Of a DNA stretch of 64,000 nucleotides, positions 31,742 to 47,955 are shown piece by piece. The number at the start of each line of letters is the position of its first letter. Within the stretch, counting starts at the first letter, position 1. Under the pieces are notes generated by a model that saw only the letters and a list, made by a program, of their open reading frames with translations, searched no databases and was not told the DNA's origin. Source of the stretch: Bacteroidales bacterium (GTDB taxonomy: Bacteria > Bacteroidota > Bacteroidia > Bacteroidales > WCHB1-69); assembly GCA_024400635.1 (NCBI GenBank), contig JAKSMI010000002.1, positions 120,305 through 184,304 of the forward strand, given 5' to 3'. Both the position numbers and the translations under genes were made by a program.

Positions 31742-31815
31742 GCTTCCTTAGCTCAGTCGGTTAGAGCATCTGACTGTTAATCAGAGGGTCCTAGGTTCAA
31801 GTCCTAGAGGGAGCG
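31742..31815 (+). tRNA. tRNA-Asn (anticodon GTT)
   Basis: Manual cloverleaf: acceptor GCTTCCT/AGGGAGC; D stem GCTC/GAGC; anticodon stem TCTGA/TCAGA with loop CTGTTAA; T arm CTAGG-TTCAAGT-CCTAG; discriminator G. CCA is not encoded. Confidence 0.93.
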
Positions 31816-31867
31816 CAAAGAAAAGCACCTATTCTCAATGAATTAGGTGCTTTTTTTGTTGCCTTCC
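31773..31867 (+). repeat. Direct repeat 1 (attL-like): tRNA-Asn anticodon loop to 3' end plus terminator
   Basis: It matches 47860-47955. The tRNA portion (ACTGTTAATCAGAGGGTCCTAGGTTCAAGTCCTAGAGGGAGCGCA) is identical, as is ATTCTCAATGAATTAGGTGCTTTTTTTGTTGCCTTCC. The copies differ only in the ~12 nt between these two blocks. Confidence 0.9.
31823..31856 (+). terminator. Rho-independent terminator of tRNA-Asn
   Basis: GCACCTA-ttctcaatgaat-TAGGTGC followed by TTTTTTT. A second copy lies at about 47912-47945 inside the downstream direct repeat. Confidence 0.7.
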
Positions 31868-31971
31868 GGATAGGGGAAAATGTGGCGATTTCAACAGGTT
31901 TTGGGTAAAAAATCTATAATAGTTCACTAATTTTCGGTGAGCTCAACTTGTTGGAAATCAAGATAACAGCA

Positions 31972-33180
31972 ATGGCAACAATAGGATATGAAATCAGCAA
32001 TTATGCAAAGGGAAACGGCTCCATTAGTGTTCGTCTCCGTTTGACACATAACAAGAAGAACAAGTATTTCAGCAGTGGTATCTTCGTCTCAAGAGACGAC
32101 CTGACAAAATGTGGAAAGATACGAAATAAGGAGATTGCTTCACTAATTAGTGAAATGGTTCTGGACTACACCAGACGGATAGCAGAATGTTCAATAGAAA
32201 TCAACCGATGTTCCGATGTAAATGAAGTGTATCGTATTATTACAAAAGAAGATAAACTAATTCACCGAGATATAGATTTCTTTGACTATGCACAAAAGTT
32301 TATGGAAAATAAAGAGAGTGAAAAGACTGCTTCTGGATATAGAACAATGCTATCTTCATTTCAAACATTTATTAAGAAGAAAACAATTGCTTTCAATGAT
32401 ATCACACCAACCGTATTACGTTCATACATAGATTATCTTGACCCAAAGCGGCGACGTTCGTCACAATATCTGACCCTAATAAAGTCAATCTTCAATTCTG
32501 CCATTAAAGAATATAATGACGAAGCAATCGTTATTAAGAACCCATTTTCAAAGATAGATATGCCCAAACCCCCTGTTCCTGAAAAACGTGGACTAACAGT
32601 TGAACAGATACGGGCAATTGCCAATCATAAATCTACGGGCAAACGAGAACAATTTGCCAAAGAAATGTTCCTTTTATCTTTTTGCCTTGTCGGAATAAAT
32701 GCAATTGACCTCTACGATTGTGACCAGATAGAAGGGGATAAAATAACCTACTATCGTCATAAGACCCGTGGACGGAGAGATGATAATGCTAAAATGGTTG
32801 TTGCTATACCTCCTATTGTGAAAAGTGTTGTTGAGAAGCACCGGGATAATACCAATAAAAAGGTTTTCAATCTGCATATCCGTTATGCTGAAAGCGGTAA
32901 TCTAAATGCAAATATCAATAAGGGATTGAAGGTAATTGGTAAAAAGTTGGGTATAGAGAACCTTCAAATGTATTGTGCAAGACATAGTTGGGCAACCATT
33001 GCTGCAAATGACTGTCGTATGGATATATATACAATTCATAAAGCACTGAACCATACCACCAGTAAATTGAAAATAACGGAAACTTATATTAGGGAAAATT
33101 GGGATTGGTTGGAAAGAGCGAATAATCAGGTGCTGGATTATGTCTTTGGTGAAGCAGATATCAATGATTTTCTGCTCTAA
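31972..33180 (+). CDS. Tyrosine recombinase / phage-type integrase (Bacteroidota type)
   Basis: C-terminal catalytic residues lie in ARHSWATIAAN...IHKALNHTT...TETYI (R, H-x-x-R-like, Y). It is adjacent to attL. I start at the ATG at 31972. Confidence 0.85.
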   Translation: MATIGYEISNYAKGNGSISVRLRLTHNKKNKYFSSGIFVSRDDLTKCGKIRNKEIASLISEMVLDYTRRIAECSIEINRCSDVNEVYRIITKEDKLIHRDIDFFDYAQKFMENKESEKTASGYRTMLSSFQTFIKKKTIAFNDITPTVLRSYIDYLDPKRRRSSQYLTLIKSIFNSAIKEYNDEAIVIKNPFSKIDMPKPPVPEKRGLTVEQIRAIANHKSTGKREQFAKEMFLLSFCLVGINAIDLYDCDQIEGDKITYYRHKTRGRRDDNAKMVVAIPPIVKSVVEKHRDNTNKKVFNLHIRYAESGNLNANINKGLKVIGKKLGIENLQMYCARHSWATIAANDCRMDIYTIHKALNHTTSKLKITETYIRENWDWLERANNQVLDYVFGEADINDFLL

Positions 33181-33325
33181 TGTATATCACATGGAAAGCA
33201 AACAGACAGATTCACATGATTCGTTATCATGGACGAAGTAGAGCATGTATTATTCGACAAAAAGCTTTCTCTGTATAATAAATATTGGACAGCGGACTGT
33301 GCCATGTTTTTTCACACCAATTGCT

Positions 33326-33333
33326 TATCTTTG
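33326..33333 (+). promoter_or_regulatory. Bacteroidota -7 promoter box (TAtcTTTG) upstream of the WYL regulator gene
   Basis: TATCTTTG lies 20 nt upstream of the ATG at 33353. Confidence 0.45.
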
Positions 33334-33352
33334 CCGCAAAAAAGAAATTGTC

Positions 33353-34282
33353 ATGAGCAAGAATTTGATTAACAGGTATATTTGGTTGGTAGACACCATT
33401 TACCAAGCTGGTTCTTCGGGAATTACACTCCGAGAAATTTCAGAAAAATGGGAAAGCAACTGGCGAATGTCTGGAAAGGAGGAGTATGCAAGACGCACCT
33501 TCATGCATCACAAAAAGGACATTTGGGACATCTTCGGCATTGAAATAGGATGTCACAAGCACACCAATTGCTACTATATTGTGGATAGCAGGGATATTTC
33601 CGACTCGTCGGGTTTTCGGCGGTGGATGTTCGAGACGTTAGCAGTGAATAACCACGTTAATGAGAGTGCCCAATTGCGCGACCGTATCTTATTGGAGAAC
33701 AACCCCTCTGGAGGTGAGTTCCTTTCCACCACCTTGGAAGCGATGCGCGACGGAAAGATGATCACATTTGATTATCGTCCGTTTTGGTTTGAGGCCGAAA
33801 ACTATTCCAGCTACTACCATGTGGAGCCTTATGCTCTGAAGGTGTTCAAACGCCGCTGGTATCTGTTGGGCAAATACGGCGACTCACCTTTGAAGATATA
33901 TGCACTAGACCGCTTTCTGAATATCGACATCGAATTCGAGGACTTCACAATGCCGCAAGGCTTCAATGCAAATGCCTACTTCTCCACCTGTTTTGGAATC
34001 ATCGTTGGTGATGAAGATCCGCAATTCATCAAACTAAAAGTGGCTTACTATCAGGCAAACTATCTCCGTTCATTGCCGCTTCACCACTCCCAGAAAGAGA
34101 TGGAGATTACCGATAACCATACCATCTTCAGCTATTATTTGCGTCCATCTTTTGACTTTGTGCAGGAGCTGCTTTCCTTGGGAGAAACTGTTGAGGTGCT
34201 TGAACCCGCTTCCTTGCGCTTGGAGATGGAGAGAATCGGGAAGGAGATTGCGAAGAATCATAAAAGGGAGCGACGGAAATAA
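33353..34282 (+). CDS. WYL-domain transcriptional regulator (wHTH + WYL)
   Basis: N-terminal wHTH-like region (INRYIWLVDTIYQAGSSGITLREISEKW). The central motif EPYALKVFKRRWYLLGKY is the hallmark WYL segment. I start at the ATG at 33353. Confidence 0.8.
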   Translation: MSKNLINRYIWLVDTIYQAGSSGITLREISEKWESNWRMSGKEEYARRTFMHHKKDIWDIFGIEIGCHKHTNCYYIVDSRDISDSSGFRRWMFETLAVNNHVNESAQLRDRILLENNPSGGEFLSTTLEAMRDGKMITFDYRPFWFEAENYSSYYHVEPYALKVFKRRWYLLGKYGDSPLKIYALDRFLNIDIEFEDFTMPQGFNANAYFSTCFGIIVGDEDPQFIKLKVAYYQANYLRSLPLHHSQKEMEITDNHTIFSYYLRPSFDFVQELLSLGETVEVLEPASLRLEMERIGKEIAKNHKRERRK

Positions 34283-34305: not shown

Positions 34306-34821
34306 TTACACTATCGGATCTGGACACACATTGCGCCGTTGGCACTTTTCGCACTCGCTACCACGCCACACTTTATCGAATTCCTCAATGACAGCGGTTA
34401 CGAGAGCGTGATCATCGGTGAGGACACCTGCTTCGAAATTGCGGCGGAGGGGCGACTTCATCCCCATTCCCGCGCCCGTGAGGTTCGCGCTGCCCACGTA
34501 GCAGACCGTCTGGTCGATGACGATGATTTTGAAATGTACCCGCGGACACATCACCCGTTCCAGCATCTTGGCCAGTCGTGGGTAGCGGTCGAAGTCGGCG
34601 CGGAAGTTCGGTCCTGGTTCCTTTGCGTGGATCAGCCGCACCTCCACGCCCCTTCCCAGCAGTTCCGCCAGCACCCCGAGAAACGGCTTCTCGATTTTAC
34701 CCTGCAACACGTATAGGTCTTTGATGTCAGCGGTACCAATCCACAACGAGTGCTTGGCCTTCATCGCAAGGTCAAGCACGGTGGTGCAGTGGGAGGAGTC
34801 GGAGATGAGGGTAGTGGGCAT
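34306..34821 (-). CDS. Phospholipase D-family (single-HKD, Nuc-like) nuclease
   Basis: HKD motif HFKIIVIDQTVCYVGSANLTG, and a C-terminal Cys pair (CEKCQRRNVC). The gene is visibly GC-richer than its surroundings. Confidence 0.8.
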   Translation of the reverse strand: MPTTLISDSSHCTTVLDLAMKAKHSLWIGTADIKDLYVLQGKIEKPFLGVLAELLGRGVEVRLIHAKEPGPNFRADFDRYPRLAKMLERVMCPRVHFKIIVIDQTVCYVGSANLTGAGMGMKSPLRRNFEAGVLTDDHALVTAVIEEFDKVWRGSECEKCQRRNVCPDPIV

Positions 34822-34865
34822 TATAAATCGATTATTATCAGTTGTTTAGTGAGCTATATTTCGCA

Positions 34866-34873
34866 CAAATATA
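34866..34873 (-). promoter_or_regulatory. Bacteroidota -7 promoter box (TAtaTTTG, minus strand) upstream of the PLD nuclease gene
   Basis: The plus-strand sequence CAAATATA is the reverse complement of TATATTTG. It lies 45 nt upstream of the ATG at 34821. Confidence 0.4.
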
Positions 34874-34951
34874 ATATTGAAAATTGTACGAAACAGAATT
34901 GGAAAATTTTTGGAACTGCATAAATTTTCGTATGAATTTTTATGATTGCCT

Positions 34952-35024
34952 GCAGACCTACGGTCTGCGTCAAATCCTCGTGCTGTTTCGTTGCTACCAA
35001 GCCCGGCAGACCAAACGGCCTGCC
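34952..35024 (-). other. GC-rich structured intergenic element (two strong hairpins), possible terminator or small RNA
   Basis: Hairpin 1 is GCAGACC-tac-GGTCTGC (34952-34968). Hairpin 2 is an 8-bp stem at 35005-35024 whose single non-Watson-Crick pair is A-C on the plus strand but G-U on the minus strand. Confidence 0.35.
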
Positions 35025-35083
35025 TCCTTTGCAGCGGTTGTCTGAACCATTGTTGGAGGTTTGAGTATATGTTAAAAGCTTTT

Positions 35084-36103
35084 TTATATTGTTTCAAGGC
35101 CAGCGATACCTGTTCTTAGCAACATTTCAGCAAACGTTTTGCCATTGATAAGACGGACATTGTTTTCTTCAGCCTTTCTCATGGCTTCGTCCGAAAAATC
35201 ATCACAAGAGGATATCACCCATAGGACAGAATGATATTCAGTATTTTGGTATTTTTCAGAATTCACAACTATTTGCTTAACTGCGTCATCAGAGGTAGTG
35301 TCTTTATGCCATTTAGCTTGAACCCGTATTGCAACTTTCAATTCTTCAAAATAAGCTACAGCATCAGTGTCCCCATCTTCAGTTCGACTTGAATTTTTAG
35401 CTGGAACTTCAACACGAGCACCCAAGTGTTCAAAATAACTTTTTACAAGCTCCTCGAATTTATTATCCCCTGGCATTTTTCTGATTTTTTCGAGAATTAT
35501 TCCACAAGTGTTTTCTTTGATTTCTGAGTACAGATTTAAAGGTTGTCCTGTTTCAGCACGATTGAGAGCGTCTTCAACATTAGAAGACAAAGATGTTATG
35601 TCTGAATTTATTTGCTGAATTTTCATACGTGAAAACAAAGGACCATCAGCATAAACTCTCGGTATCTTAGTCTTGATAGGTTTAACGTTCCAAAAGAAAC
35701 CTATATCAATTATTCTGTTTGTGTCTTTTTGATAGATATACCCTTCCCGGTATTCAACTTCATTTCCATTCCAATCCTTTGCTCCATTTAGGTCAAGTTT
35801 TTCACATGAATATGGTCGTTCGCCCACAATCTCGAAAAGGCTGAATTCATAAGGTGTTGGAACGAGCACAACATCCCCTTTTTTCATTTCTTTTAGAAAT
35901 CGGTACAAACACCATCTGTTGCGAGGATTTCCCCATGCTTCAAATTTCTCATTGAACTCAGTGTCAAAATTATCAATAAAAGATTCTTCCGAGAAATCAG
36001 ACCAACCAATAGAAAGGATGTTTTTTTCAAACAATAATGGGGTTGATAAAACGATTCCTATCTCTCCGCTTTTGATGCGATGTAACCAATAATTTTTACT
36101 CAT
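35084..36103 (-). CDS. Mrr-type restriction endonuclease with an N-terminal PUA/EVE-like domain (candidate modification-dependent, type IV-like)
   Basis: The C-terminal GDTDAVAYFEELKVAIRVQAKWH fits the Mrr-cat D...(E/Q)xK core. The N-terminal MSKNYWLHRI...NPRNRWCLYRFLKEMKKGDVVLV resembles EVE/PUA-like readers. The start is taken at the ATG at 36103; ATGs at 36139 and 36187 are also possible. Confidence 0.65.
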   Translation of the reverse strand: MSKNYWLHRIKSGEIGIVLSTPLLFEKNILSIGWSDFSEESFIDNFDTEFNEKFEAWGNPRNRWCLYRFLKEMKKGDVVLVPTPYEFSLFEIVGERPYSCEKLDLNGAKDWNGNEVEYREGYIYQKDTNRIIDIGFFWNVKPIKTKIPRVYADGPLFSRMKIQQINSDITSLSSNVEDALNRAETGQPLNLYSEIKENTCGIILEKIRKMPGDNKFEELVKSYFEHLGARVEVPAKNSSRTEDGDTDAVAYFEELKVAIRVQAKWHKDTTSDDAVKQIVVNSEKYQNTEYHSVLWVISSCDDFSDEAMRKAEENNVRLINGKTFAEMLLRTGIAGLETI

Positions 36104-36146
36104 AAATTTATTGTTTAATTTATTGCTTATTGTATGCATGTTTTTT

Positions 36147-36812
36147 TTACAAGAAAACTGAAATTTGGGAAAGTACTTCAAAAGCACCGCAATTATATTC
36201 TCTTATACTATCAATAGCAAGCTGCAACCCCAAAAGTTGTAGCTGACATTTTTCTCTAGTATTCTTGCTCATTTCCATAATTTCCTCTCTATCTGGCACA
36301 ACACCAGATAATGTGAGTTCGCTAAAAGCTTTAGTTGTGATTAAATCATCATCGTCTTTTGATAAAATACCGACAAGAATTGTTTCCATAACGCTAACAG
36401 CATTATTATCTTTATTGTTAAAGCCGATTGTTTTTAGCGCACTTCTTGCCACCTCTTTTAGAACGATTGAATATACATCGGATTCGGGTTGTTCGTATAC
36501 ACCGCCATCAACATATTCAATTTGTTCATCATCTTCTTTATAATCATTCAATCCAAATTGTATGCGTACTGAATATATGGCTTCATCTATTTTATCAAAC
36601 AAGTCTTCTATTTGTTCCTTAACAATCAGATTGTAATCTGGATTATTGTCAGAATAGTCAATAGACTTATTGATTTCATCCTTTAGTTGAGGCAAGTCAT
36701 CATATTCAATCTGGTCAATCTGTTCTTCCAGATAGTTAATATCAGCATCCTGCAGCTGTTTTAGACTCTCTAATCGATTTAAAATTGCTGTAAGCTTGTC
36801 AATGATTTCCAT
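36147..36812 (-). CDS. Highly acidic hypothetical protein
   Basis: The ORF is rich in D/E runs (DDLPQLKDE, YKEDDEQIEYVDGG, SKDDDDL). No domain was recognised. I start at the ATG at 36812 (MEIIDKL). Confidence 0.55.
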   Translation of the reverse strand: MEIIDKLTAILNRLESLKQLQDADINYLEEQIDQIEYDDLPQLKDEINKSIDYSDNNPDYNLIVKEQIEDLFDKIDEAIYSVRIQFGLNDYKEDDEQIEYVDGGVYEQPESDVYSIVLKEVARSALKTIGFNNKDNNAVSVMETILVGILSKDDDDLITTKAFSELTLSGVVPDREEIMEMSKNTREKCQLQLLGLQLAIDSIREYNCGAFEVLSQISVFL

Positions 36813-36886
36813 GTCGCTTTTAATTAACAAACACATGTTTTTCCACTCCGCAAAATTACAAAATTATCCCATTCACCATCATTGCC

Positions 36887-37093
36887 TCAAACAACAATTC
36901 CCTCCTCCTTTTCCACCTTTTCAATGCACTCCTCAATGTCAGCAATCAATTCTTTCAAAAACTCTATTTTTGCCGACTTGTCCGGGAAATTGTCAGGATT
37001 TGCTTCAAATTCACTCTCGATCAAGTCGCTGATTGTGAATTCACATCCTAAATCTTCTTCATCTGGGGCTACATAAAAATAATAATCGTTCAT
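36887..37093 (-). CDS. Very acidic 68-aa hypothetical protein
   Basis: Hand count: 21 D/E versus 5 K and no R in 68 residues. It is tightly packed in the minus-strand operon. Confidence 0.5.
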   Translation of the reverse strand: MNDYYFYVAPDEEDLGCEFTISDLIESEFEANPDNFPDKSAKIEFLKELIADIEECIEKVEKEEGIVV

Positions 37094-37099
37094 GTCTAT

Positions 37100-37612
37100 T
37101 CAATTTTTCTTTTGGTTTTTCTCGTTTGGAATGATTATTCGCTCAATATCATTTACAATTTGATTCCATCCTTGACTATTTTGTTCCTCAAAGGTGGTCA
37201 TGATGTCAATGAAGTTAAAAGAGACGATCGGCTGCTGTTTCAGCCACTTGATGGTTTTATATGATTCCGGCACGAAAACATTCGGTGCCAATTCGCAACT
37301 GTAACGATGCCCCCACAGACAAATCACAGACGTGGGAATGCGTGCAGCAAGATGATACTCTATTCTTCCCTTCAAATCTTCGTTTGTATCTTCGAATGGG
37401 TCCATTCAGGCCACAAAACAGCAGAGGGTCTTTTTTTCGTCAATGCTTGTCTCAATCTTGTCCCATCTTTCACTGGAGCAGCATTCGAACGCCTCGCTTT
37501 CTGCGCTTCTTGACATTATGTATTCCATTATCTCCACCGCTTTTGCTCCCAACGGGACAACGATGACTTTTTCAAAATGTGTGTTGGGGTTGTTAATAAT
37601 ATTCTTGATCAT
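37100..37612 (-). pseudogene. Hypothetical gene interrupted by an in-frame TGA that directly abuts an ATG (68-aa and 101-aa ORFs)
   Basis: ORFs 37406-37612 and 37100-37405 share one frame. They are separated only by TGA (37406-37408), which is followed directly by ATG (37403-37405). Both halves weakly resemble successive parts of the 186-aa protein at 39049-39609. Confidence 0.45.
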
Positions 37613-37730
37613 AACGTTTATATTGTTTTGGAACTAGTAGAATCAACCTCTGTCCGATTTTGATGCGGCAAAAACAGCGCATAGCTGTGCAAAAACGTAG
37701 CGCTGTAGGGTTGTCGCAATTCGGCACCCC

Positions 37731-38225: not shown

Positions 38226-38272
38226 GATTGAACATTCTTTGGGTGTATTATAATGATTGCTTTCTTCCACGC

Positions 38273-39609: not shown

Positions 39610-39651
39610 TTTCTTTAATGTTTAAATACGCTGACAAAAATAGAACATCGC

Positions 39652-39670
39652 TGTGCCATATTTTGGCACA
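39652..39670. promoter_or_regulatory. Perfect palindromic operator-like site TGTGCCA-N5-TGGCACA in the divergent promoter region
   Basis: A perfect 7-bp inverted repeat in the 100-nt gap between the divergent operons (39609 minus, 39710 plus). It sits 10 nt upstream of the TAttTTTG box at 39680. Confidence 0.45.
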
Positions 39671-41440: not shown

Positions 41441-41517
41441 GTGTCTAATAATTCGCATAGGTCGCACCATTTTCTATCTAATACGTGCGCTGTTTTACCA
41501 TATTAAGACATGCCGTT

Positions 41518-42147
41518 ATGTTAAAATTTTTACGGGAAACACTTTCTATCGGGGACTTTGTGGAGGTAGAAACTTCCACAGGATTAGTGCGTGGCTCCAT
41601 CTTGGAAATACCACCTGATTGTTTGGTGATGCTAACTGATGGCGAACTGCACGAATATTCAGAGGAGCAGTTGTTGAGTATCAAATACTTTTCCGATGAT
41701 CACGATGCCTATCGGGATTGTTATATCCAAAAGTTTATACCAGAAGAAAAGAGTGAGAGATATTTTTGGGCAGAAAACCACAATGGATCGTTGTGTTGCA
41801 CGAATTTCGACAACATCATCACAATTTTTATGGGCTGGAATATGCGTTTCCAACGCGGTCATCTTGACTTGCCCGACTTGATTGATGTGGAGGACGAATA
41901 CTATAATATAGAAGTCTTGAGCAATGATTGTGATGATTGTTTTTCAGACTATATCACTTCCGTCAAGTTACCGAAACATTTGAAGAGTATTGAGCTACTA
42001 TTCATAGGAAGAATCTTCCTCCAGAAAATATATGTTCCCGATACTTTAGTTTATTCGGGAGGGTACAAAATAGGCGGTTGCACCACATGTCAAGTTTTCG
42101 ACATGAATGGAAAACTTTTGGATTGGGAGTTTGAAGAGGATTGGTAA
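41518..42147 (+). CDS. Hypothetical protein (209 aa)
   Basis: An ORF following the ATPase gene with no domain recognised. The start is taken at the ATG at 41518 (MLKFLRETL). Confidence 0.5.
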   Translation: MLKFLRETLSIGDFVEVETSTGLVRGSILEIPPDCLVMLTDGELHEYSEEQLLSIKYFSDDHDAYRDCYIQKFIPEEKSERYFWAENHNGSLCCTNFDNIITIFMGWNMRFQRGHLDLPDLIDVEDEYYNIEVLSNDCDDCFSDYITSVKLPKHLKSIELLFIGRIFLQKIYVPDTLVYSGGYKIGGCTTCQVFDMNGKLLDWEFEEDW

Positions 42148-42177
42148 ACAGTGCCGCACTTTTGCACACTCCCGATA

Positions 42178-42185
42178 TATTTTTG
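42178..42185 (+). promoter_or_regulatory. Bacteroidota -7 promoter box (TAttTTTG) upstream of leader copy A
   Basis: TATTTTTG lies 19 nt upstream of the conserved leader element. Confidence 0.4.
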
Positions 42186-42203
42186 CCGCAGGTTCCATAC
42201 CAT

Positions 42204-42273
42204 ACGCCCTCGCCGAAAAGCGTTCAATAGAGTAGGCATTTTTAAAAGTTGTGCCCGACACGTACTAGGGAGA
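42204..42273 (+). repeat. Conserved leader element, copy A (upstream of the 79-aa ORF)
   Basis: ACGCCC..GCCGAAAAGCGTTCAATAGAGTAGGCA - variable spacer - AGTTGtGCCCGACACGTAcTAGGGA. It ends 0-5 nt before an ATG. Its counterpart lies at 43647-43720. Confidence 0.8.
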
Positions 42274-42513
42274 ATGATTATGCCGCAAATGATAGTCTAT
42301 AATGGGGAACTGATACGTATTAGCCCCAAAAACAAGAGAAAAATAGAGGTGTCTACTAATCATGGTGGATCATGGATGACCCGCTGTGTTGGATCTGCCA
42401 GCACTGGAGAATTCCTTGATTTGGTAAACAATGGATCTGAGATAATTGCCACCACCGAAAAAGGGCTGTTCGTCTCTTCCAACAACGGAGGATCTTGGAT
42501 AAGAAGAAGTTAA
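42274..42513 (+). CDS. Small protein with two degenerate BNR/Asp-box-like motifs (STNHGGSW, SSNNGGSW)
   Basis: A 79-aa ORF starting right after leader copy A. The S-x-N-x-G-G-S-W motif occurs twice. Confidence 0.5.
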   Translation: MIMPQMIVYNGELIRISPKNKRKIEVSTNHGGSWMTRCVGSASTGEFLDLVNNGSEIIATTEKGLFVSSNNGGSWIRRS

Positions 42514-42539
42514 CAATTATCCCTAAAAAATATACCACT

Positions 42540-42818
42540 ATGAGAAATTTAAAAAACAACATGCTGGCACTGATACTTGTGATTTGCAATTTTGCTGTCT
42601 ATGCAGAAACTGCTTCGGAAGCTGCCAACCCTTCAGAATCCAACATTTTCATTGAGATCTTGGTTTACGCTTTGATTTTCGGAATCCCATTGTTGGTGAT
42701 TATCCGAAAAATTAGGCGAAAAATCAGGAACTTCAAGGAGGATGTAAAAAGTGGCGGTTTCGGAGAAGCAACCATGAGCCGTTTGGAAGACCATTTCGAC
42801 AGAAAGAACAAGAAATAG
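42540..42818 (+). CDS. Small secreted/membrane protein (signal peptide + one TM + basic tail)
   Basis: MRNLKNNMLALILVICNFAVYA signal, a TM helix (IFIEILVYALIFGIPLLVII), and then RKIRRKIRNFK. Confidence 0.5.
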   Translation: MRNLKNNMLALILVICNFAVYAETASEAANPSESNIFIEILVYALIFGIPLLVIIRKIRRKIRNFKEDVKSGGFGEATMSRLEDHFDRKNKK

Positions 42819-42838
42819 TAGACTAAACGCTTCTCGTC

Positions 42839-43678
42839 ATGAATCTTAAATTCTTTTTCAGTTCCATTGTTTCGAACCGCTATTTTGAGTGGACGATAAC
42901 GATTGTTATTCTCGTGAACGCGGTACTTATCGGTATCGAACTAAATGTTTGTGATCCCACCATCGAACTGATACAGAGGATTATTTTGCTGATTTTTACC
43001 GTGGAAATCCTGATGCGATTCATGGCGAGAGAAAATGTGAGGGAGTTTTTCTCTAACGGTTGGAACATCTTCGACCTCGCTCTTGTGTTGATTGGTTATA
43101 TTCCAGAGGATCTTTTTGCCAATGCTTCCGCCATGATGGCTATTAGGGTGCTCCGTGTATTGCGCGTACTTCGATTGCTCAGGGCTGGAAAAGAAATCAA
43201 ACTTATCACTACTGTGCTTACCAAATCGATGGTTTCAATGGTGTGGTACGTCATCCTGTTTGCGATTTTCATTTACCTGTTTGCTATAATAGGGGTAAGC
43301 ATGTTCAAGTTGCCCGACCCCGAAAAGCTAACGCAAGAAGACCGCTCAAGATACGAACAGTTTATGCGTGAAGTTCACAACGCCCCCGACAACTCTCCTG
43401 ACCCGTTCGGGTCGTTGTCGGAAGCAATGTTTACTCTATTTCGCGAGCTAACAGGCGAGGATTGGACAGACCTGCGTTACAACACTATCTCCGCCTACGA
43501 GTACGGCGTTATCCGAGTGAATCCTGTGGTCATCACGACCTACCACATACTTTGGTTTTCGCTGTCAGTCTTCCTGTTGCTGAACTTAGTTACAGGATCA
43601 ATCATCAATAACTATCAAAACATAAAGGAAGAGCAAAATAGTCAAAACGCCCCAGCCGAAAAGCGTTCAATAGAGTAG
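42839..43678 (+). CDS. Six-TM voltage-gated-type cation channel (BacNav/ion_trans family) with a TGEDW selectivity-filter motif
   Basis: S1-S6 can be laid out by eye. S4 is RVLRVLRVLRLLR, with Arg at every third position. The pore helix and filter read AMFTLFRELTGEDWTDLRY. Confidence 0.82.
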   Translation: MNLKFFFSSIVSNRYFEWTITIVILVNAVLIGIELNVCDPTIELIQRIILLIFTVEILMRFMARENVREFFSNGWNIFDLALVLIGYIPEDLFANASAMMAIRVLRVLRVLRLLRAGKEIKLITTVLTKSMVSMVWYVILFAIFIYLFAIIGVSMFKLPDPEKLTQEDRSRYEQFMREVHNAPDNSPDPFGSLSEAMFTLFRELTGEDWTDLRYNTISAYEYGVIRVNPVVITTYHILWFSLSVFLLLNLVTGSIINNYQNIKEEQNSQNAPAEKRSIE

Positions 43679-43720
43679 GCAAAAAATTCTAGCAGTTGCG
43701 CCCGACACGTATTAGGGAAA
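43647..43720 (+). repeat. Conserved leader element, copy B (overlaps the channel gene 3' end, upstream of the 73-aa ORF)
   Basis: Same blocks as copy A: a 27-nt identical core GCCGAAAAGCGTTCAATAGAGTAGGCA, then AGTTGcGCCCGACACGTAtTAGGGA. Confidence 0.8.
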
Positions 43721-43725
43721 CGAAA

Positions 43726-43947
43726 ATGAGTAAGGTTTATAGAATCACACCGAAAGCTATTCACAGAACAAACAACACCGTTCTGACTCCTGAGATGGAA
43801 ATCATCGTGACTTTAGAGCGTCACACATCCGATCCATTCTACAATGGTGCAAAAGAAATCAAAGCCATGTATATGGACAGATATGGTTTTGATTATGAGC
43901 GGGCGAATGCTACAAAAGCTTGGTTTGATTATGAGAGATTAGACTAA
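43726..43947 (+). CDS. Small soluble hypothetical protein (73 aa)
   Basis: An ORF starting 5 nt after leader copy B (MSKVYRITPKAIHRTNNTVLTPEMEIIVT...). It resembles small proteins I recall from Bacteroidota mobile elements, but I cannot name a family with certainty. Confidence 0.5.
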   Translation: MSKVYRITPKAIHRTNNTVLTPEMEIIVTLERHTSDPFYNGAKEIKAMYMDRYGFDYERANATKAWFDYERLD

Positions 43948-44093: not shown

Positions 44094-44173
44094 AAAGTTC
44101 TCTTAAAGTTCTCTTAAAGTTCTCTTAAAGTTCTCTTAAAGTTCTCTTGAAACTCCCCTACTTTAAGAGAACT
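44094..44173. repeat. Iteron-like array: five tandem 11-bp repeats (AAAGTTCTCTT) plus one inverted copy
   Basis: Five perfect head-to-tail units span 44094-44148. The inverted copy TTAAGAGAACT at 44163-44173 overlaps the stop codon of the minus-strand gene. Confidence 0.9.
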
Positions 44174-45860
44174 ATTTTCGTCTCCATAACTTCTTCTCTC
44201 CAAAAACTATTTTGTCTGCTTTTCGTAGAGACGTTAGCAAGTTACCTATCTTGGATACTTTCTGTTTGTCAGTTAAAGCTTCGGGTAATTTCGTCATCAA
44301 CAGCGTATCAATTTCAGGACGACTCATTGTCACATGTTGATCCAATGCTTTTAGGATAAGATCCTTGTAGTAATTATCATCGAATCCCTTGTTACGAGTG
44401 TATTCCGCTTTTTGACCTGTAGCTTTGGCCACACTCTTGGCAAAAAACAATGCATTCTTTCGACCTTCAATCAGTTTGCGCTTTCTCAAGTAAGCAATTT
44501 CCTCATCACTTAGTGGACGATTGGTTTGTAACCTGCTCAACATTTCAATGTCAAGCAAAGTCAGTGTTTTGTCTCTGGTCAAGAGCATGGCATAGTCAAT
44601 GTCCACCACTTTGCCGATAATCGTCACTTTAACCCTATCGTCACTAAATTCATAATCAGGCATAGGGAATAAGCGTTCGCGTTGTTTGTTAAACATCCGT
44701 CTGATACCGCTGCCAATCGTATCCACCATGCCCAATTCCACCATTGCTGTTGCCAGAAACCTGTTACGATAATGTTCCTCAGGAGCATCGTTTATCAACA
44801 CATTCTTAATGCTGTTGGGAATGAAAGTCCCCAAATTGGTAAAGATCAGTCGGTCTTCTTCCTCTATTACGTTAATCATTCCATAACGTCCATAGTCCTG
44901 ATGAGCTATGGCATTATTTAATGCTTCCCGAATGATAAAAGGGTCGTATGTATCCAGCTCGTCTGGCACTAGCGAAAGAAGTTCTGGATTCATATATCTG
45001 TACTTCCAGTTGCGTATTTTCCTGTAAACCGTATTAGCTGCAATAACAAACGGACATGTTTCAATGGAGAAATCTTTCTCTTCACCGTTGGAATCCTTGT
45101 ATATCCATCTGATACGTGCAACAGCTGGCGAAATAAAATGTTCGCTCTCGGTGCGTCCCAACAATAATATTGCGGTATTGGTTATCTGGCCTTGTTTGGT
45201 TATCTTTGCTTTGTTCAGAAACCTCACATCATCCCACGATTTCATCTCCACTATCAGGTCTTCGTGTTTCTTGGCGTACATCTTGCGAGCTTCTTTGATG
45301 GCATCGGGATCAAGATCGTCAAATGTGGCATCTTTTACGATTTCGGCACTCCAGTCTTTCTGTGAGTTGTATATTTGGCGAACATAGTCTGGAAAATCTT
45401 TGAGTTTCGTCAGATTGCTTCCAACCCTCACATAAGCAGCTCCCTTGAAATTTACAGGTTCTCCTGCCGCAGCCTGTATCTCGAAAATAACAATGTGTTT
45501 GTCTTCGTACTCGAACTCCTCTATTTCAAAGGGGGTAATGGGCGAACAGTTTTTTCTAAGCCATAGTTCATAATCCTGATTGCCATATTTAGCTGTCGGC
45601 ATTCTCAGATTAGTTCCAACCACATTCCATGTCCCATCCTCCACTCCTAGAACCAAATAACCGTGTGATTTGTATTTCAAGCAGGCTGAATTGGAAAGAC
45701 CAGAGATGTAGTTTCCAACCCCCTCATACGTAACGCTGCATCGAGACTCGCCAATATTAGTCTTAAACTCCATCCATTCCGTTTCTCCAGCACTTTGGCG
45801 TTGGCGAGCCTGTGCCAACAGATCCTCCAACAGTATATATTGTTCTTCAATTGTTTTCAT
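44172..45860 (-). CDS. AlbA_2/Schlafen-like DNA-binding domain protein with a GHKL-type ATPase-like region and C-terminal wHTH (often annotated RecG-like or putative transcriptional regulator)
   Basis: 562 aa and a paralogue of 55175-56845. Shared blocks include FLNKAKIT..G.IT.TA.LLLG, ARIRW, REALNNAIAHQDY and RMFNKQRERLFPMPDY. The family call is from recall. Confidence 0.65.
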   Translation of the reverse strand: MKTIEEQYILLEDLLAQARQRQSAGETEWMEFKTNIGESRCSVTYEGVGNYISGLSNSACLKYKSHGYLVLGVEDGTWNVVGTNLRMPTAKYGNQDYELWLRKNCSPITPFEIEEFEYEDKHIVIFEIQAAAGEPVNFKGAAYVRVGSNLTKLKDFPDYVRQIYNSQKDWSAEIVKDATFDDLDPDAIKEARKMYAKKHEDLIVEMKSWDDVRFLNKAKITKQGQITNTAILLLGRTESEHFISPAVARIRWIYKDSNGEEKDFSIETCPFVIAANTVYRKIRNWKYRYMNPELLSLVPDELDTYDPFIIREALNNAIAHQDYGRYGMINVIEEEDRLIFTNLGTFIPNSIKNVLINDAPEEHYRNRFLATAMVELGMVDTIGSGIRRMFNKQRERLFPMPDYEFSDDRVKVTIIGKVVDIDYAMLLTRDKTLTLLDIEMLSRLQTNRPLSDEEIAYLRKRKLIEGRKNALFFAKSVAKATGQKAEYTRNKGFDDNYYKDLILKALDQHVTMSRPEIDTLLMTKLPEALTDKQKVSKIGNLLTSLRKADKIVFGEKKLWRRK

Positions 45861-45990: not shown

Positions 45991-46302
45991 TTAATCCCCG
46001 AAATCACATAAGTCGTCTATAAGATCAAAATCATCCTCCATCATGTCTCTCGTCTGTGCTGGATCCCGATAGTAAACGGCTACGCGTTCCAAAGGCAATT
46101 CCACTCCGAACAATGAAGCCCACGAATGGATTTGATCAAGCACCTCCACGCCGTCGAAGTTATTGGAATCAACCAGACATTGCACACAGAACCTGCCGTC
46201 TTCTTCTATCACTTCAATGGATACGTTTGTTGGCTCCCCGTTAAGAACCATTTTAGTTTCAAGTTCGTTTCTTTTTGCCTTTGTTTCAATACTAGTGGCC
46301 AT
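45991..46302 (-). CDS. Acidic hypothetical protein (~103 aa)
   Basis: An ORF between the integrase and the AlbA_2-like gene. The start is taken at the ATG at 46302 (MATSIETKAK). The C-terminus is MMEDDFDLIDDLCDFGD. Confidence 0.45.
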   Translation of the reverse strand: MATSIETKAKRNELETKMVLNGEPTNVSIEVIEEDGRFCVQCLVDSNNFDGVEVLDQIHSWASLFGVELPLERVAVYYRDPAQTRDMMEDDFDLIDDLCDFGD

Positions 46303-46365
46303 ATTTTTGTTGTTTATATTATTGGTTTTGTTGTTAAATGTCGCAAAACAGGTCAAGAGTACTCT

Positions 46366-47628
46366 CTACATCACCTCTTTGTAGAGTTGTTCTTTTATTG
46401 CTTTGCTCTGCATCATTGCACTTGTCCGTAACGAGTTAATGTATCCTTGCGTGGTTGTGGGGTTGGCGTGTCCCATATCCATTTGTATATCCATTAGAGA
46501 CCTCCCATTCTCACACTGAAAACTCGCATAAGTATGCCTTGCCTGCGCCATAGTGGTGTGCGGTAATCCGAGTTCTTCGGTGACCATACGGAGTCCCATA
46601 TTGGCACGGTAGTTAATATCGTTGATTCTGTCGTTAATTTGTCTCTCTGTATGAGTGTTAGCAAGAAAGGGGAAGATGTAGTCGTTAGGGCACGACTTAT
46701 TCACGCTCCCATATTTCGTGATGAGTTGCATCCCCAAGTCTGTAGGATAGATCGAAACGGGTATCGCGTGGCGTTTTGTTTTGTGTCTAACAAACTCGAT
46801 TTTCCACCCCACTTCCGTCAGACTAATGTTTTTGTTCTTGAGGCGCAAGATGTCACTCAAGTAATGTCCGTTGAGGTCAAATGATAGAACAAAAAAGTCT
46901 CTGCCAAATTGCGCCTTCTCATCAGAACTTCTGTATGCAAGTATTTGCTGGAGGCTATGAACCGTCAAGCCGTAATTAACCTTCCTTGTTGAAGTGAGTG
47001 AAAACTTCTTAAACGGGCGTTTGTCCTCAATGTATCCTTTCTCTACCGCGTAATTATAGACCGCCCTTATGCTCCTAAAATACATATTGACGGTGTTTTG
47101 CGAAATATCAGGTCTGTAGCGGTGCATAAAGGTGTCCAGCCGCGATAGCATTTCTCCCGTGATTTCATCCAATGTGATTCTGTCCTTGAACTTCACTATC
47201 CAATTCAAAGCAGTGTGATATGCTGATATGGTTCTGTCCGATAGTGGTCGAGTTCTATTGGCGTCTGACAAGTACTCTGCAAAAATAGTTCGCATATCGT
47301 AGGCACTGGAAGTTTCTCCGCGAATCATCTTTTTATAGTCTCGGTAGAATGATTCAAAACTAAACGAGTCTCCGAGTTTTCCTATTATCTCAATAGCGGC
47401 GTTGTAGTCAGCGCGAATCTCCTCATAAGCCTCCTTGTACTTCTTGAGGTGCTTGTTCTGGAACTCCGCCGCCGTTAATTGTATTGTGCTATTGGTTGCG
47501 AAATAGCGGGGGATCCGATTATATGTGATCCGCAACTCAAGTGTGCGTTTGTCACTAATTGGTTCGGACATTGTTTTACTCCTCCTGTGATTTCGCACTA
47601 TTTCAACGGCTGGTTTTTTCATACTCAA
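46366..47628 (-). CDS. Tyrosine recombinase / integrase (second, distinct from the one at 31972)
   Basis: The catalytic region is ARHTYASFQCENGRSLMDIQMDMGHANPTTTQGYI. It is adjacent to attR and transcribed into the island. Confidence 0.85.
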   Translation of the reverse strand: MSMKKPAVEIVRNHRRSKTMSEPISDKRTLELRITYNRIPRYFATNSTIQLTAAEFQNKHLKKYKEAYEEIRADYNAAIEIIGKLGDSFSFESFYRDYKKMIRGETSSAYDMRTIFAEYLSDANRTRPLSDRTISAYHTALNWIVKFKDRITLDEITGEMLSRLDTFMHRYRPDISQNTVNMYFRSIRAVYNYAVEKGYIEDKRPFKKFSLTSTRKVNYGLTVHSLQQILAYRSSDEKAQFGRDFFVLSFDLNGHYLSDILRLKNKNISLTEVGWKIEFVRHKTKRHAIPVSIYPTDLGMQLITKYGSVNKSCPNDYIFPFLANTHTERQINDRINDINYRANMGLRMVTEELGLPHTTMAQARHTYASFQCENGRSLMDIQMDMGHANPTTTQGYINSLRTSAMMQSKAIKEQLYKEVM

Positions 47629-47721
47629 AATTTTTCCCTCTTTATAGTAATATAATAAAAAAAATTATAATTTTGCGCCACAATCAAAAAAAGTAATGAA
47701 AGTGTTGTCAACATATATGGT

Positions 47722-47744
47722 ATGGACTAACAAATGGACTAACA
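47722..47744 (+). repeat. Two direct 11-nt repeats (ATGGACTAACA) near attR, candidate arm-type sites
   Basis: ATGGACTAACA occurs at 47722-47732 and 47734-47744, between the integrase start and the att repeat. Confidence 0.5.
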
Positions 47745-47859
47745 TTTGCCACAATCTTCACTAAACAAACAAAAACGTTTTTGTCATAATATACTGATTT
47801 TCTGGCTATTATTAGTGTCTTGCGAAAATAAAAAAAACTATGAAAAAAAACATAACATA

Positions 47860-47955
47860 ACTGTTAATCAGAGGGTCCTAGGTTCAAGTCCTAGAGGGAG
47901 CGCAACCACAAAGCACCAATTCTCAATGAATTAGGTGCTTTTTTTGTTGCCTTCC
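47860..47955 (+). repeat. Direct repeat 2 (attR-like): displaced 3' half of tRNA-Asn plus terminator
   Basis: See repeat 1. It lacks the 5' half of the tRNA, so it is not a functional tRNA gene. Confidence 0.9.

What the first reader, a model, noticed from the sequence alone, without database searches (positions are those of the whole stretch)
31773..47955. ~16-kb island in tRNA-Asn bounded by ~95-nt direct repeats, with a different tyrosine integrase at each end
The sequence from the anticodon loop to the 3' end of tRNA-Asn, plus the tRNA's terminator hairpin (31773-31867), recurs at 47860-47955. The tRNA part is identical, as is the block ATTCTCAATGAATTAGGTGCTTTTTTTGTTGCCTTCC. Only about 12 nt between these two blocks differ.

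Three things are unusual:
- The repeat runs about 50 nt past the tRNA end.
- Two clearly different integrase genes (31972-33180 plus strand, 46366-47628 minus strand) face inward from the two ends.
- No relaxase, replication or conjugation gene is recognisable.

Base composition is visibly mosaic. The PLD nuclease and exonuclease genes are GC-rich and lie next to AT-rich genes. Together with the two integrases, this suggests two elements fused in tandem with a lost middle att site, or a modular defence island.
Basis: partly seen in the sequence, partly recalled or inferred. Interest (0 to 1): 0.6.

Follow-up and report, generated by a model that had tools for sequence, protein, structure and literature searches.

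The report
Composite defence island at tRNA-Asn
A 16-kb block inserted in a rumen Bacteroidales asparagine tRNA gene is a 14.7-kb anti-phage gene island with its own integrase, fused to the 1.4-kb stub of a second, unrelated integrase element that targets the same tRNA; this is a tidy example of a known process, not a new kind of element.

Summary
tRNA-Asn(GTT) lies at 31742-31816. Its last 46 nt plus a terminator hairpin (31773-31867) recur at 47860-47955. The two copies differ only by a 3-versus-4-nt linker and one mismatch, not by about 12 nt.

Both integrases are intact and only 26% identical. In other metagenomes, each family occurs on its own at tRNA-Asn:
- Int1 relatives always sit just downstream of tRNA-Asn, a terminator and a spacer.
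- Int2 relatives sit at the far end of islands, next to a partial tRNA copy and paired arm-type repeats. One complete example is 7.15 kb with a single integrase.

Window 33189-47860 is collinear with an Int2-type island in a buffalo-rumen Bacteroidales MAG, at 78-96% nucleotide identity. Only 31819-33188 (terminator, spacer and int1) is Int1-type. No internal att copy survives.

The cargo is a conserved scaffold: WYL regulator, PLD nuclease, DEDDh exonuclease, AAA ATPase, several unknown proteins and an SLFN-like protein. One slot in it is exchangeable. It holds an Mrr-like module here and GmrSD or McrBC elsewhere, which explains the GC mosaic.

Verdict: site-specific accretion followed by a deletion, producing a hybrid island. 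It is a new member of a known kind. Whether it can still move is untested.

The parts
31742..31816 (+). Intact tRNA-Asn (GTT). Its 3' part is supplied by the inserted DNA.
   Evidence: ARAGORN. Rfam tRNA model, 72.6 bits.
31773..31867 (+). attL-side repeat: a 46-nt core (anticodon loop to tRNA 3' end), the linker AGA, then the terminator hairpin plus GTTGCCTTCC.
31868..31971 (+). Int1-type spacer (candidate arm region) with the motif ATAGTTCACTAAT. It is homologous to the spacers upstream of Int1 homologues, and to a remnant beyond the attR of the L020 island.
31972..33180 (+). Int1, a 402-aa tyrosine recombinase. It has Arm-DNA-bind_5 and SAM_5 N-terminal domains and a diverged catalytic domain (ARHSW...H...Y).
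   Evidence: NCBIfam XerA model aligned over residues 108-380. Homologues at tRNA-Asn.
33176..33189 (.). Fusion junction. Homology to Int1 cassettes ends at about 33175, and homology to the Int2-type island backbone (L068) starts at 33189. The right-hand inverted repeat seen in all six close Int1-homologue contigs that include sequence both upstream and downstream of int1 (L034-L039), and in diverged form in L040, is missing here.
33297..33336 (+). Promoter with a palindromic motif (GTGCCA-N6-TcaCAC ... TAnnTTTG) upstream of the WYL gene. One of about six copies of the scaffold's shared promoter/operator.
33353..34282 (+). WYL + WCX domain protein of 309 aa, a putative transcription regulator.
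   Evidence: Pfam. PADLOC WYL model, E=4e-30. 94% nt identity to L068.
34306..34821 (-). PLD-family nuclease of 171 aa (DrmC-like). It is a conserved scaffold gene and the last gene of the slot operon. GC 0.576.
34826..37665 (-). Exchangeable slot. Here it holds an 83-aa ORF, an Mrr_cat nuclease fusion (35084-36187, PDC-S02-like), a 229-aa ORF, and ORFs of 68, 101 and 68 aa. GC is 0.367. The same position holds GmrSD in L068, McrBC plus AAA_14 in L071, and two GmrSD genes in L072.
37669..37703 (-). Diverged copy of the shared promoter motif at the head of the slot operon. It corresponds to a canonical copy in L071 and L075.
37731..38974 (-). DEDDh 3'-5' exonuclease (37731-38276, PDC-S48-like) and a conserved 233-aa protein of unknown fold (38273-38974). 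Their promoter motif lies at 38996-39035.
   Evidence: AlphaFold model not usable.
39049..39609 (-). Conserved 186-aa protein with no known domain.
39635..39690 (.). Perfectly placed palindrome GTGCCATATTTTGGCAC, serving two divergent promoters (the 186-aa gene and the AAA ATPase gene).
   Evidence: (I15).
39710..42147 (+). AAA+ ATPase of 576 aa (IetA-like in PADLOC, Cdc48/VCP-like D2 domain) and a conserved 220-aa protein.
42149..43947 (+). Promoter motif (42149-42188); two DUF805b-type RNA motifs (42203-42238 and 43646-43681); ORFs of 77 and 92 aa; an Ion_trans channel protein (42839-43678); and a DUF6140 protein of 83 aa.
44172..45860 (-). SLFN/AlbA_2 + HATPase_c_4 protein of 562 aa. With Int2 and the 121-aa gene it forms a conserved Int2-121aa-SLFN end module. 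It is 96-97% identical at the protein level in L020 and L031.
45991..46356 (-). 121-aa acidic protein with no known domain. It is conserved next to Int2 in L020 and L031.
46366..47622 (-). Int2, a 418-aa tyrosine integrase with SAM_5 and Phage_integrase domains and canonical RHTYA...GH...Y motifs. It is the cognate integrase of the 14.7-kb island.
   Evidence: Homologues at tRNA-Asn att sites.
47722..47744 (+). Two direct copies of ATGGACTAACA, the Int2 arm-type candidate repeats. The same pair lies next to Int2 homologues in L026 and L031, and diverged versions of it in L019 and L020. L026 has a second pair at its tRNA-proximal end, which the window lacks.
47860..47955 (+). attR-side repeat: the displaced tRNA-Asn 3' part (46 nt), the linker CCAC, then the terminator hairpin plus GTTGCCTTCC.

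Best explanation
The block 31819-47904 is a hybrid genomic island. It was built at a tRNA-Asn hot spot by two unrelated families of tyrosine-recombinase elements that both recombine at the same 46-nt core, which runs from the anticodon loop to the 3' end of tRNA-Asn.

The large part:
- Segment 33189-47859 (14.7 kb) is an Int2-type integrative island.
- Its integrase gene sits at the tRNA-distal end, next to paired arm-type repeats and the displaced tRNA 3' part.
- Its cargo is a conserved anti-phage scaffold: WYL regulator, PLD nuclease, an exchangeable nuclease slot, DEDDh exonuclease, the 233-aa and 186-aa proteins, an AAA+ ATPase, a 220-aa protein, a channel module and an SLFN-like protein.
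- The scaffold promoters share one palindromic motif.

The small part:
- Segment 31819-33188 (1.4 kb) is what remains of an Int1-type module.
- It brings its own copy of the tRNA 3' part and a terminator, so the tRNA stays intact. That is why the direct repeat is 95 nt rather than about 50 nt.
- It also carries the int1 gene.

Inferred history:
1. The Int2 island integrated at tRNA-Asn.
2. An Int1 module then integrated into the regenerated tRNA.
3. A deletion removed the far end of the Int1 module, the middle att site and the tRNA-proximal end of the Int2 island, including its proximal arm sites. This joined the int1 stop codon to the WYL promoter.

Shown versus inferred:
- Shown: the anatomy, the separate occurrence of both element types at tRNA-Asn, the collinearity, and the slot variation.
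- Inferred: the order of events, the deletion, the defence function, and that the hybrid attL/attR pair is now a poor substrate for either integrase alone.
For: 1. Int2 relatives at tRNA-Asn:
- L026 (Int2 relative, 91% aa) is a complete 7,151-bp island with a single integrase. It is bounded by 52-nt direct repeats of the tRNA-Asn 3' part, at the same YitT-tRNA-Asn locus. The integrase is at the distal end, and the ATGGACTAACA-type pairs occur at both ends.
- L031, L020 and L019 show Int2 relatives next to a partial tRNA-Asn copy plus terminator.

2. Int1 relatives at tRNA-Asn:
- Relatives of 50-76% identity lie 150-230 nt downstream of an intact tRNA-Asn in L034-L038 and L047. L038 and L047 are at the YitT locus.
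- More distant relatives sit next to tRNA-Arg or tRNA-Gly.

3. Collinearity:
- L068/L020, one MAG contig, carries Int2-121aa-SLFN-DUF6140-channel-AAA-183aa-239aa-DEDDh-GmrSD-PLD-WYL in the window's order.
- Nucleotide identity is 95.8% (45939-39089), 78% (38983-37728) and 94% (34825-33189).
- Homology stops 9 nt after the int1 stop codon.

4. The window lacks the right-hand inverted repeat found after int1 in the relatives whose downstream sequence is available (L034-L040), which fits truncation.

5. There is no third att copy and no Int2 arm pair near attL.

6. In L020, the Int2 island's attR is followed by an Int1-type terminator and spacer without int1. The two element types therefore also meet at this site in the opposite order.

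7. The slot:
- L071-L077 carry the same scaffold at 85-90% nt, with McrBC or GmrSD in the slot.
- The slot is AT-rich and flanked by GC-rich scaffold genes.

8. Tandem accretion by distantly related integrases of like specificity is an established process (PMC5704250).
Against: - The deletion must have left both int1 and the WYL promoter and gene intact. That is possible but convenient.
- The two terminator copies are 45/46 identical, while terminators from different genomes are only about 75-90% alike. This needs an extra assumption, such as an older remnant of the same Int1 lineage at attR, or gene conversion.
- No comparator shows a complete Int1-type element, so its normal far end is unknown.
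- All comparators are metagenome or MAG contigs.
- The only same-species contig without the island (L001) has a different right flank (a GH92 gene), so it is not a clean empty site.
- The defence function rests on domain matches only. No complete known system was recognised.
Confidence: 0.72

Rival explanations
1. A single, purpose-built two-integrase element. In the circular form the attP core would be flanked by divergent int genes (<-int2, arm2, core, terminator, arm1, int1->). Int2 would bind one arm and Int1 the other, and both would be needed for integration and excision.
For: - Both genes are intact, face inward, and each has its own candidate arm motif on its own side of the core.
- The identical 16-kb structure appears in contigs from several sequencing runs.
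Against: - No other locus combines the two. L026 is complete with Int2 alone and has Int2 arm pairs on both arms.
- L031 and L068 show 10-24 kb of Int2 island without an Int1 relative.
- In L034-L039, Int1 relatives lie in a 1.24-kb segment between inverted repeats, with no WYL scaffold in the short stretch seen downstream of int1.
- The window's int1 has lost that repeat.
- The matching contigs are 100% identical, so they are probably one strain.
Confidence: 0.08
2. The segment was not assembled in this genome. It arrived already fused, either by site-specific integration of a pre-formed hybrid circle or by homologous recombination across the conserved tRNA-Asn and terminator region after transfer of donor chromosomal DNA.
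For: - The 95-nt near-identical repeats are what integration of a circle carrying core plus terminator into a like attB would give.
- Transfer of pre-formed accretion products is documented (PMC5704250).
- A same-species contig (L001, 99% identical upstream) has quite different DNA downstream of the tRNA.
Against: Nothing distinguishes this from local assembly. It changes where the fusion happened, not what the island is. No donor with the same junction was found.
Confidence: 0.15
3. The second repeat is a scattered tRNA pseudogene or a chance duplication, and the region between the repeats is ordinary chromosome, not an inserted element.
For: No excision product or clean empty site was observed.
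Against: - There are only two copies in 64 kb, with 0 expected by chance.
- In four other loci the partial tRNA copy lies next to Int2-type arm repeats and an Int2 homologue.
- The orthologous YitT-tRNA-Asn locus holds a different 7-kb island in L026 and Int1 modules in L038 and L047.
Confidence: 0.02

Closest known systems
Tandem accretion of integrative elements at one att site (ICESt1/ICESt3-type accretion, CIME-IME and IME-IME tandems; reviewed in PMC5704250)
   Same: Two elements with distantly related integrases of the same target specificity pile up at the 3' end of one tRNA gene. Decay then leaves a composite bounded by the outer att sites.
   Different: - Here the internal att site is gone entirely, and one partner is reduced to its integrase module.
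- No relaxase, oriT or conjugation genes are recognisable.
- The host is an uncultured rumen Bacteroidales.
- Co-excision has not been shown.
Small integrase-only genomic islands of Bacteroidota in tRNA genes, for example the Riemerella anatipestifer 10K island (53-bp attB in tRNA-Arg; PMC6764341). NBU1 and NBU2 are also relevant, from my own knowledge.
   Same: A tyrosine integrase with an att core of about 50 nt identical to the 3' part of a tRNA gene. The island is 7-16 kb, and in that system the integrase plus attP is sufficient.
   Different: - The target is tRNA-Asn.
- The Int2 gene is at the tRNA-distal end.
- The cargo is a defence scaffold.
- Function of the att sites was not tested here.
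Defence hot spots with conserved flanks and exchangeable content (as in P2/P4-type elements and E. coli defence islands, PMC10121019; relaxase-less 'iOriT' islands, bioRxiv 10.64898/2026.01.13.699239)
   Same: A fixed gene frame has one position where different restriction-type modules (Mrr-like, GmrSD, McrBC) replace each other. The island has an integrase but no transfer genes.
   Different: - The frame itself (AAA ATPase, 186-aa, 233-aa, DEDDh, PLD, DUF6140) is not a described system.
- It also occurs without any integrase (L071-L077).
- No oriT was identified.
WYL-domain repressors of defence systems (BrxR/CapW type; from my own knowledge)
   Same: A WYL plus WCX protein is encoded at the edge of the defence genes. 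A palindrome overlaps its own promoter and those of the cargo operons.
   Different: - No HTH domain was detected by Pfam.
- The same palindrome occurs in L071-L077, where no WYL gene lies within 10 kb. The regulator may therefore be something else.

Membership tests
tRNA-targeting tyrosine-integrase genomic island | An intact tRNA gene at one end and a direct repeat of its 3' part at the other. | tested here: met
   46/46-nt core at 31773-31818 and 47860-47905. The tRNA is intact.
tRNA-targeting tyrosine-integrase genomic island | A tyrosine recombinase gene next to an att site. | tested here: met
   - Int2 has SAM_5 and PF00589 domains, and its box II aligns to IntI4.
- Int1 has SAM_5 and Arm_5 domains and a full-length XerA-model alignment.
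tRNA-targeting tyrosine-integrase genomic island | Presence or absence polymorphism, meaning an empty site in related genomes. | tested here: inconclusive
   - L001 (99% identical upstream) lacks the island but has another right flank.
- The orthologous locus in L026, L038 and L047 has other occupants.
- The Logan contig breaks at 31769-31778 are explained by k=31 and the shared tRNA, so they are not evidence.
tRNA-targeting tyrosine-integrase genomic island | Excision to a circle (attP) with a restored attB. | not testable with these tools
   This needs reads or PCR across the 46-nt core.
Accretion composite (tandem integrative elements) | Two integrases of different families with the same target site, each found alone elsewhere. 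| tested here: met
   - The two share 26% identity.
- Int2 type occurs alone in L026.
- Int1 type occurs at tRNA-Asn in L034-L038 and L047.
Accretion composite (tandem integrative elements) | An internal att site between the two elements. | tested here: not met
   There is no third core or terminator copy. The junction at 33176-33189 is not att-like. This is therefore a fused, decayed composite and not an intact tandem.
ICE / IME | A relaxase, coupling protein, T4SS genes or a recognisable oriT. | tested here: not met
   No such domains were found in any ORF of 31.9-47.6 kb. oriT is not testable.
Prophage or phage satellite | Phage structural, packaging or replication genes, or a match to phage records. 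| tested here: not met
   - The ten cargo ORFs without a Pfam hit that were scanned had no PHROGs hits.
- Neither integrase has a close relative in IMG/VR.
- Only the tRNA matches phage records.
Known anti-phage systems (PADLOC models) | The full gene set of a described system. | tested here: not met
   Only single-component resemblances were found: DrmC-like PLD, PDC-S02 Mrr, PDC-S48 DEDDh, IetA-like AAA and a WYL protein. No partner genes such as IetS or DrmA/B are present.
WYL-regulated defence locus (BrxR/CapW-like) | A WYL-domain regulator that binds a palindromic operator at its own promoter and at the system promoters. | tested here: inconclusive
   WYL and WCX domains are present, and a shared palindrome lies at 5-6 promoters. 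The motif is also present where no WYL gene is nearby. Binding is not testable here.

The most novel reading that the evidence does not exclude
In other genomes, Int1 is not a classical island integrase. It is the single gene of a self-contained 1.24-kb segment bracketed by inverted copies of [tRNA-Asn 3' part + terminator + spacer].

Such a module would regenerate the tRNA and offer spare attB-like cores, in either orientation. It would act as a portable landing pad that recruits Int2-type defence islands.

On this reading, the window and L020 would be two captures of that kind. The shared-operator scaffold with its exchangeable nuclease slot would then be an undescribed multi-gene defence system.
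Probability: 0.1. Interest if true: 0.7.

Novelty: new member of a known kind. Interest (0 to 1): 0.35.

Why it matters
- It gives a worked example from uncultured rumen Bacteroidales, where mobile elements are poorly charted. Two unrelated integrase families compete for one tRNA-Asn site and leave hybrid islands behind.
- It warns against reading 'two integrases plus long repeats' as a new design.
- It defines the 46-nt core and candidate arm sites of two integrase families. These could serve as integration tools for Bacteroidales.
- It flags a conserved gene scaffold whose one slot swaps Mrr-like, GmrSD and McrBC modules. That scaffold is a concrete candidate for defence-system discovery.

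Tried and rejected
- Element-borne terminator idea. From L001 I first thought the terminator in the repeat was purely element-borne and that everything from 31825 to the window end was inserted. I dropped this after L026, L031 and L020 showed homologous terminators on the chromosomal side of attR.
- Contig breaks as evidence. I took the Logan contig breaks at 31769-31778 as evidence for the island. I rejected this because k=31 and a tRNA shared with other genomes or gene copies in those samples (inferred; not tested here) would give the same break point.
- Half-and-half tandem model. I placed the boundary at 39089, where L020 homology first seemed to end. L068 showed that the same MAG island continues with 239aa-DEDDh-PLD-WYL, so I rejected this model.
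- Int2 as a single query on genome contigs found nothing. The alignment query found only two useful MAG loci.
- The metagenome scan with the Int1 alignment gave contigs that stop right after int1, so no complete Int1-type element was obtained.
- IMG/VR scans found no close relatives.
- Plasmid and phage megablast matched only the tRNA.
- An AlphaFold2 model of the 233-aa protein had pLDDT 44, so no fold search was run.
- Single-sequence PDB searches for both integrases gave no hits. Profile searches gave only weak catalytic-domain matches.
- PHROGs, NCBIfam and relaxed Pfam scans left the 83-, 121-, 186-, 220-, 229- and 233-aa proteins unassigned.
- Several inversion-based histories starting from the inverted-repeat Int1 cassette were worked through by hand. 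None gave the window's order without an added deletion.

Full report
**Observation**

ARAGORN and Rfam find one tRNA in the window, tRNA-Asn(GTT), at 31742-31816.

- From the anticodon loop onward, 31773-31818 is repeated exactly at 47860-47905.
- After a linker (AGA versus CCAC), the terminator hairpin plus GTTGCCTTCC (31822-31867) recurs at 47910-47955 with one mismatch.
Everything else in the description stands.
- The core occurs twice only, with 0 expected by chance. No degenerate third copy exists inside the island or elsewhere in the window.

**Gene content**

| Coordinates | Strand | Product |
|---|---|---|
| 31972-33180 | + | Int1, tyrosine recombinase; N-terminal Arm_5 and SAM_5 domains, catalytic part seen only with NCBIfam Xer models |
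| 33353-34282 | + | WYL/WCX protein |
| 34306-34821 | - | PLD nuclease |
| 34846-37612 | - | AT-rich run of six ORFs, including an Mrr_cat fusion |
| 37731-38276 | - | DEDDh exonuclease |
| 38273-38974, 39049-39609 | - | 233-aa and 186-aa proteins of unknown function |
| 39710-41440 | + | AAA+ ATPase (IetA-like in PADLOC, Cdc48-like in PDB) |
| 41485-42147 | + | 220-aa protein |
| 42280-43947 | + | small ORFs, an Ion_trans protein and a DUF6140 protein |
| 44172-45860 | - | SLFN/AlbA_2-HATPase_c_4 protein |
| 45991-46356 | - | 121-aa protein |
| 46366-47622 | - | Int2 (SAM_5 + PF00589) |

- Int1 and Int2 share 26% identity.
- No relaxase, replication, conjugation or phage gene was found.
- Only the tRNA matches plasmid or phage records.
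- Neither integrase has a close relative in IMG/VR.

**What the Int2 family does elsewhere**

The Int2 family is small and almost entirely metagenomic.

- L026 (91% identical integrase) is decisive. At the same YitT-tRNA-Asn locus it holds a 7,151-bp island bounded by 52-nt repeats of the tRNA-Asn 3' part.
  - It has a single integrase at the tRNA-distal end, facing inward.
  - Its cargo is a resolvase, an unknown gene and an MmeI/Type ISP enzyme.
  - The pair TGTTAGTCCAT-TTGTTAGTCCAT occurs near both ends.
  - It carries its own terminator for the rebuilt tRNA.
- L031 (83%), L020 (61%) and L019 (61%) also place the integrase beside a partial tRNA-Asn copy followed by a terminator. The same arm-type pair lies between them in L031, and diverged versions of it in L020 and L019.
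- The window has that pair only beside Int2 (47722-47744), not near attL.

**What the Int1 family does elsewhere**

- Relatives of 50-76% identity always lie 150-230 nt downstream of an intact tRNA-Asn, its terminator and a spacer with TAGTTCAC-type motifs. They face away from the tRNA (L034-L038, L047).
- L038 and L047 are at the YitT locus.
- Relatives of 31-34% identity sit next to tRNA-Arg or tRNA-Gly.
- Int1 is therefore also a tRNA-Asn-specific recombinase, with its gene on the tRNA-proximal side.
- Its module carries a copy of the core and a terminator homologous to those at the Int2-type attR sites. This accounts for the repeat running about 50 nt past the tRNA.

**Where the boundary lies**

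- A homologue of the 233-aa protein led to L068, a further stretch of the same MAG contig as L020 (JAFZKY010000014.1), and to L067, L069 and L070.
- That Int2-type island reads: Int2, 121-aa, RmuC-like, SLFN, DUF6140, Ion_trans, 92-aa, 209-aa, AAA, 183-aa, [170-aa, KAP NTPase, 112-aa], 239-aa, DEDDh, [GmrSD], PLD, WYL. It then continues with methyltransferases and a resolvase.
- This is the window's order and orientation throughout. Nucleotide identity is 95.8% (45939-39089), 78% (38983-37728) and 94% (34825-33189).
- Homology stops at 33189, 9 nt after the int1 stop codon. Homology of the window to Int1 cassettes stops at about 33175.
- Only 31819-33188 is therefore Int1-type. The remaining 14.7 kb is one Int2-type island.

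**The cargo is a scaffold with one exchangeable slot**

- L071-L077 carry DUF6140, 209-aa, AAA, 186-aa, 246-aa, DEDDh, [slot] and PLD at 85-90% nucleotide identity to the window. The setting is chromosomal, with no integrase, WYL, SLFN or tRNA within 10 kb.
- Slot content differs between loci:

| Locus | Slot content |
|---|---|
| L071, L073, L074 | 148-aa ORF + McrBC + AAA_14 |
| L075, L076 | 256-aa and 70-aa ORFs + McrBC + AAA_14 |
| L072, L077 | two GmrSD genes + AAA_14 |
| L068 | one GmrSD gene |
| window (34826-37665) | Mrr-like module |

- GC is 0.367 in the window's slot, against 0.576 (PLD) and 0.542 (DEDDh) on either side.
- Every scaffold promoter carries the same motif, GTGCCA-N6-TGGCAC(A), overlapping the Bacteroidetes -33 TTTG and followed by TAnnTTTG. 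The copies lie at 33297, 37703-37669 (diverged), 39035-38996, 39635-39690 (a palindrome serving two divergent promoters) and 42149.
- The WYL protein is the obvious candidate regulator, because the motif is also at its own promoter. However, the motif persists in L071-L077, where no WYL gene is nearby. This link is an inference of modest strength.

**Most likely history and mechanism**

Shown:
- Two element types target one core.
- Each occurs alone elsewhere.
- They meet at this site in both orders. In L020 the Int2 island's attR is followed by an Int1-type terminator and spacer with no int1 gene.
- The window has no internal att site, no proximal Int2 arm pair, and no right-hand repeat of the Int1 cassette.

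Inferred:
1. An Int2-type island integrated at tRNA-Asn.
2. An Int1 module then integrated into the regenerated tRNA.
3. A deletion from the end of int1 into the proximal part of the Int2 island fused them.

This is site-specific accretion followed by decay, a process described for ICEs and IMEs (PMC5704250).

Consequences for mobility:
- The outer att sites are now hybrid, with Int1-type sequence at attL and an Int2-type arm at attR.
- I therefore expect poor excision by either integrase alone, and I put the chance that the 16-kb unit still moves as such at roughly one in three.
- RecA-mediated loss across the 46-nt identity remains possible.
- The near-identity of the two terminators (45/46) is not explained by the simple model. 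An older remnant of the same Int1 lineage at attR, or gene conversion, would account for it.

**Empty site**

- One same-species contig (L001, 98.6-99.4% identical upstream) has a different terminator and a GH92-like gene right after tRNA-Asn, and no match to window 31825-64000.
- It shows that the locus is variable. It is not a clean empty site, because the window's right flank (type I R-M genes, then arginase and thymidine kinase) is absent from it.

**Comparison and verdict**

- The island works like other integrase-only tRNA islands of Bacteroidota, such as the R. anatipestifer 10K island with its 53-bp attB in tRNA-Arg (PMC6764341). Its two-integrase look is the product of accretion.
- It fails the tests for ICE/IME, prophage or satellite, and any complete PADLOC system.
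- It is a new member of a known kind. Interest is moderate to low for the island as such.
- Two side observations deserve follow-up: the scaffold with its slot and shared operator, and the inverted-repeat Int1 cassettes.

Noticed in passing
L034 9478-10873; L035 2952-4392; L036 2161-3601; L037 2019-3499; L038 9834-11304; L039 1480-2892; L040 1227-1484: In seven contigs from different assemblies, the gene for an Int1 homologue (56-76% identity) is followed by an inverted copy of the upstream spacer and terminator. In L037 and L040 the inverted copy visibly extends into the tRNA-Asn core.
- The central unique segment of 1,237-1,243 nt holds only int1.
- The inverted arm starts within the last codons of int1.
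- In six contigs the arms are 100% identical and run to the contig end, as expected from de Bruijn collapse.
- L040 shows a diverged right arm followed by 1.5 kb more DNA, including a DUF2958 gene.
- The window's int1 lacks this right arm. More distant relatives at tRNA-Arg and tRNA-Gly have none.
   Followed up: partly
window 33297-33336, 37669-37703, 38996-39035, 39635-39690, 42149-42188; also L068, L071, L072, L075, L077: A shared promoter/operator motif, GTGCCA-N6-TGGCAC(A) plus TAnnTTTG, lies at every scaffold promoter. In the window it occurs only inside the island. It is conserved in loci that lack a nearby WYL gene.
   Followed up: partly
window 42203-42238 and 43646-43681: There are two copies of the Rfam DUF805b cis-regulatory RNA motif (RF02914), scoring 32.0 and 37.4 bits against a gathering score of 35.6. 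They are part of a 70-nt direct repeat (42204-42271 and 43647-43718) that precedes small ORFs. A related piece precedes a 69-nt-repeat protein gene in L020, at about 20030-20060.
   Followed up: no
window 44083-44159: An 11-nt tandem repeat, AAAGTTCTCTT, occurs in about five copies between the DUF6140/channel module and the 3' end of the SLFN gene. A short inverted partner lies at 44160-44181. The Logan contig behind L011 (12,286 nt, starting at window 31838) would end at about window 44123, inside this repeat.
   Followed up: no
window 47956-62140: Directly after attR lies a 14-kb type I R-M locus. hsdM (48103-49653), hsdS (53447-54640) and hsdR (59009-62131) are split apart by a Fic/Bro-N gene, two YhcG/DUF1016 nuclease genes, a second SLFN/AlbA_2-HATPase_c_4 gene (55175-56845) and an AAA_14/DUF4143 gene. 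No integrase or att remnant is present. The region is absent downstream of tRNA-Asn in the same-species contig L001.
   Followed up: partly
L001 1-760: A contig 99% identical to the window upstream of tRNA-Asn carries an unrelated terminator and a convergent GH92-like gene immediately after the tRNA. This implies a rearrangement or a different occupancy of this locus within the species.
   Followed up: partly
L035 2897-3005: A tandem duplication of the 54-nt terminator block lies downstream of tRNA-Asn, in front of an Int1 homologue.
   Followed up: no
L071 16120-16383 and 17754-18250 (also L072, L075): A partial second copy of the 5' part of the PLD gene lies upstream of the AAA_14/DUF4143 gene, which sits just before the full PLD gene. 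This suggests cassette insertion with duplication at the slot's PLD-side boundary.
   Followed up: no
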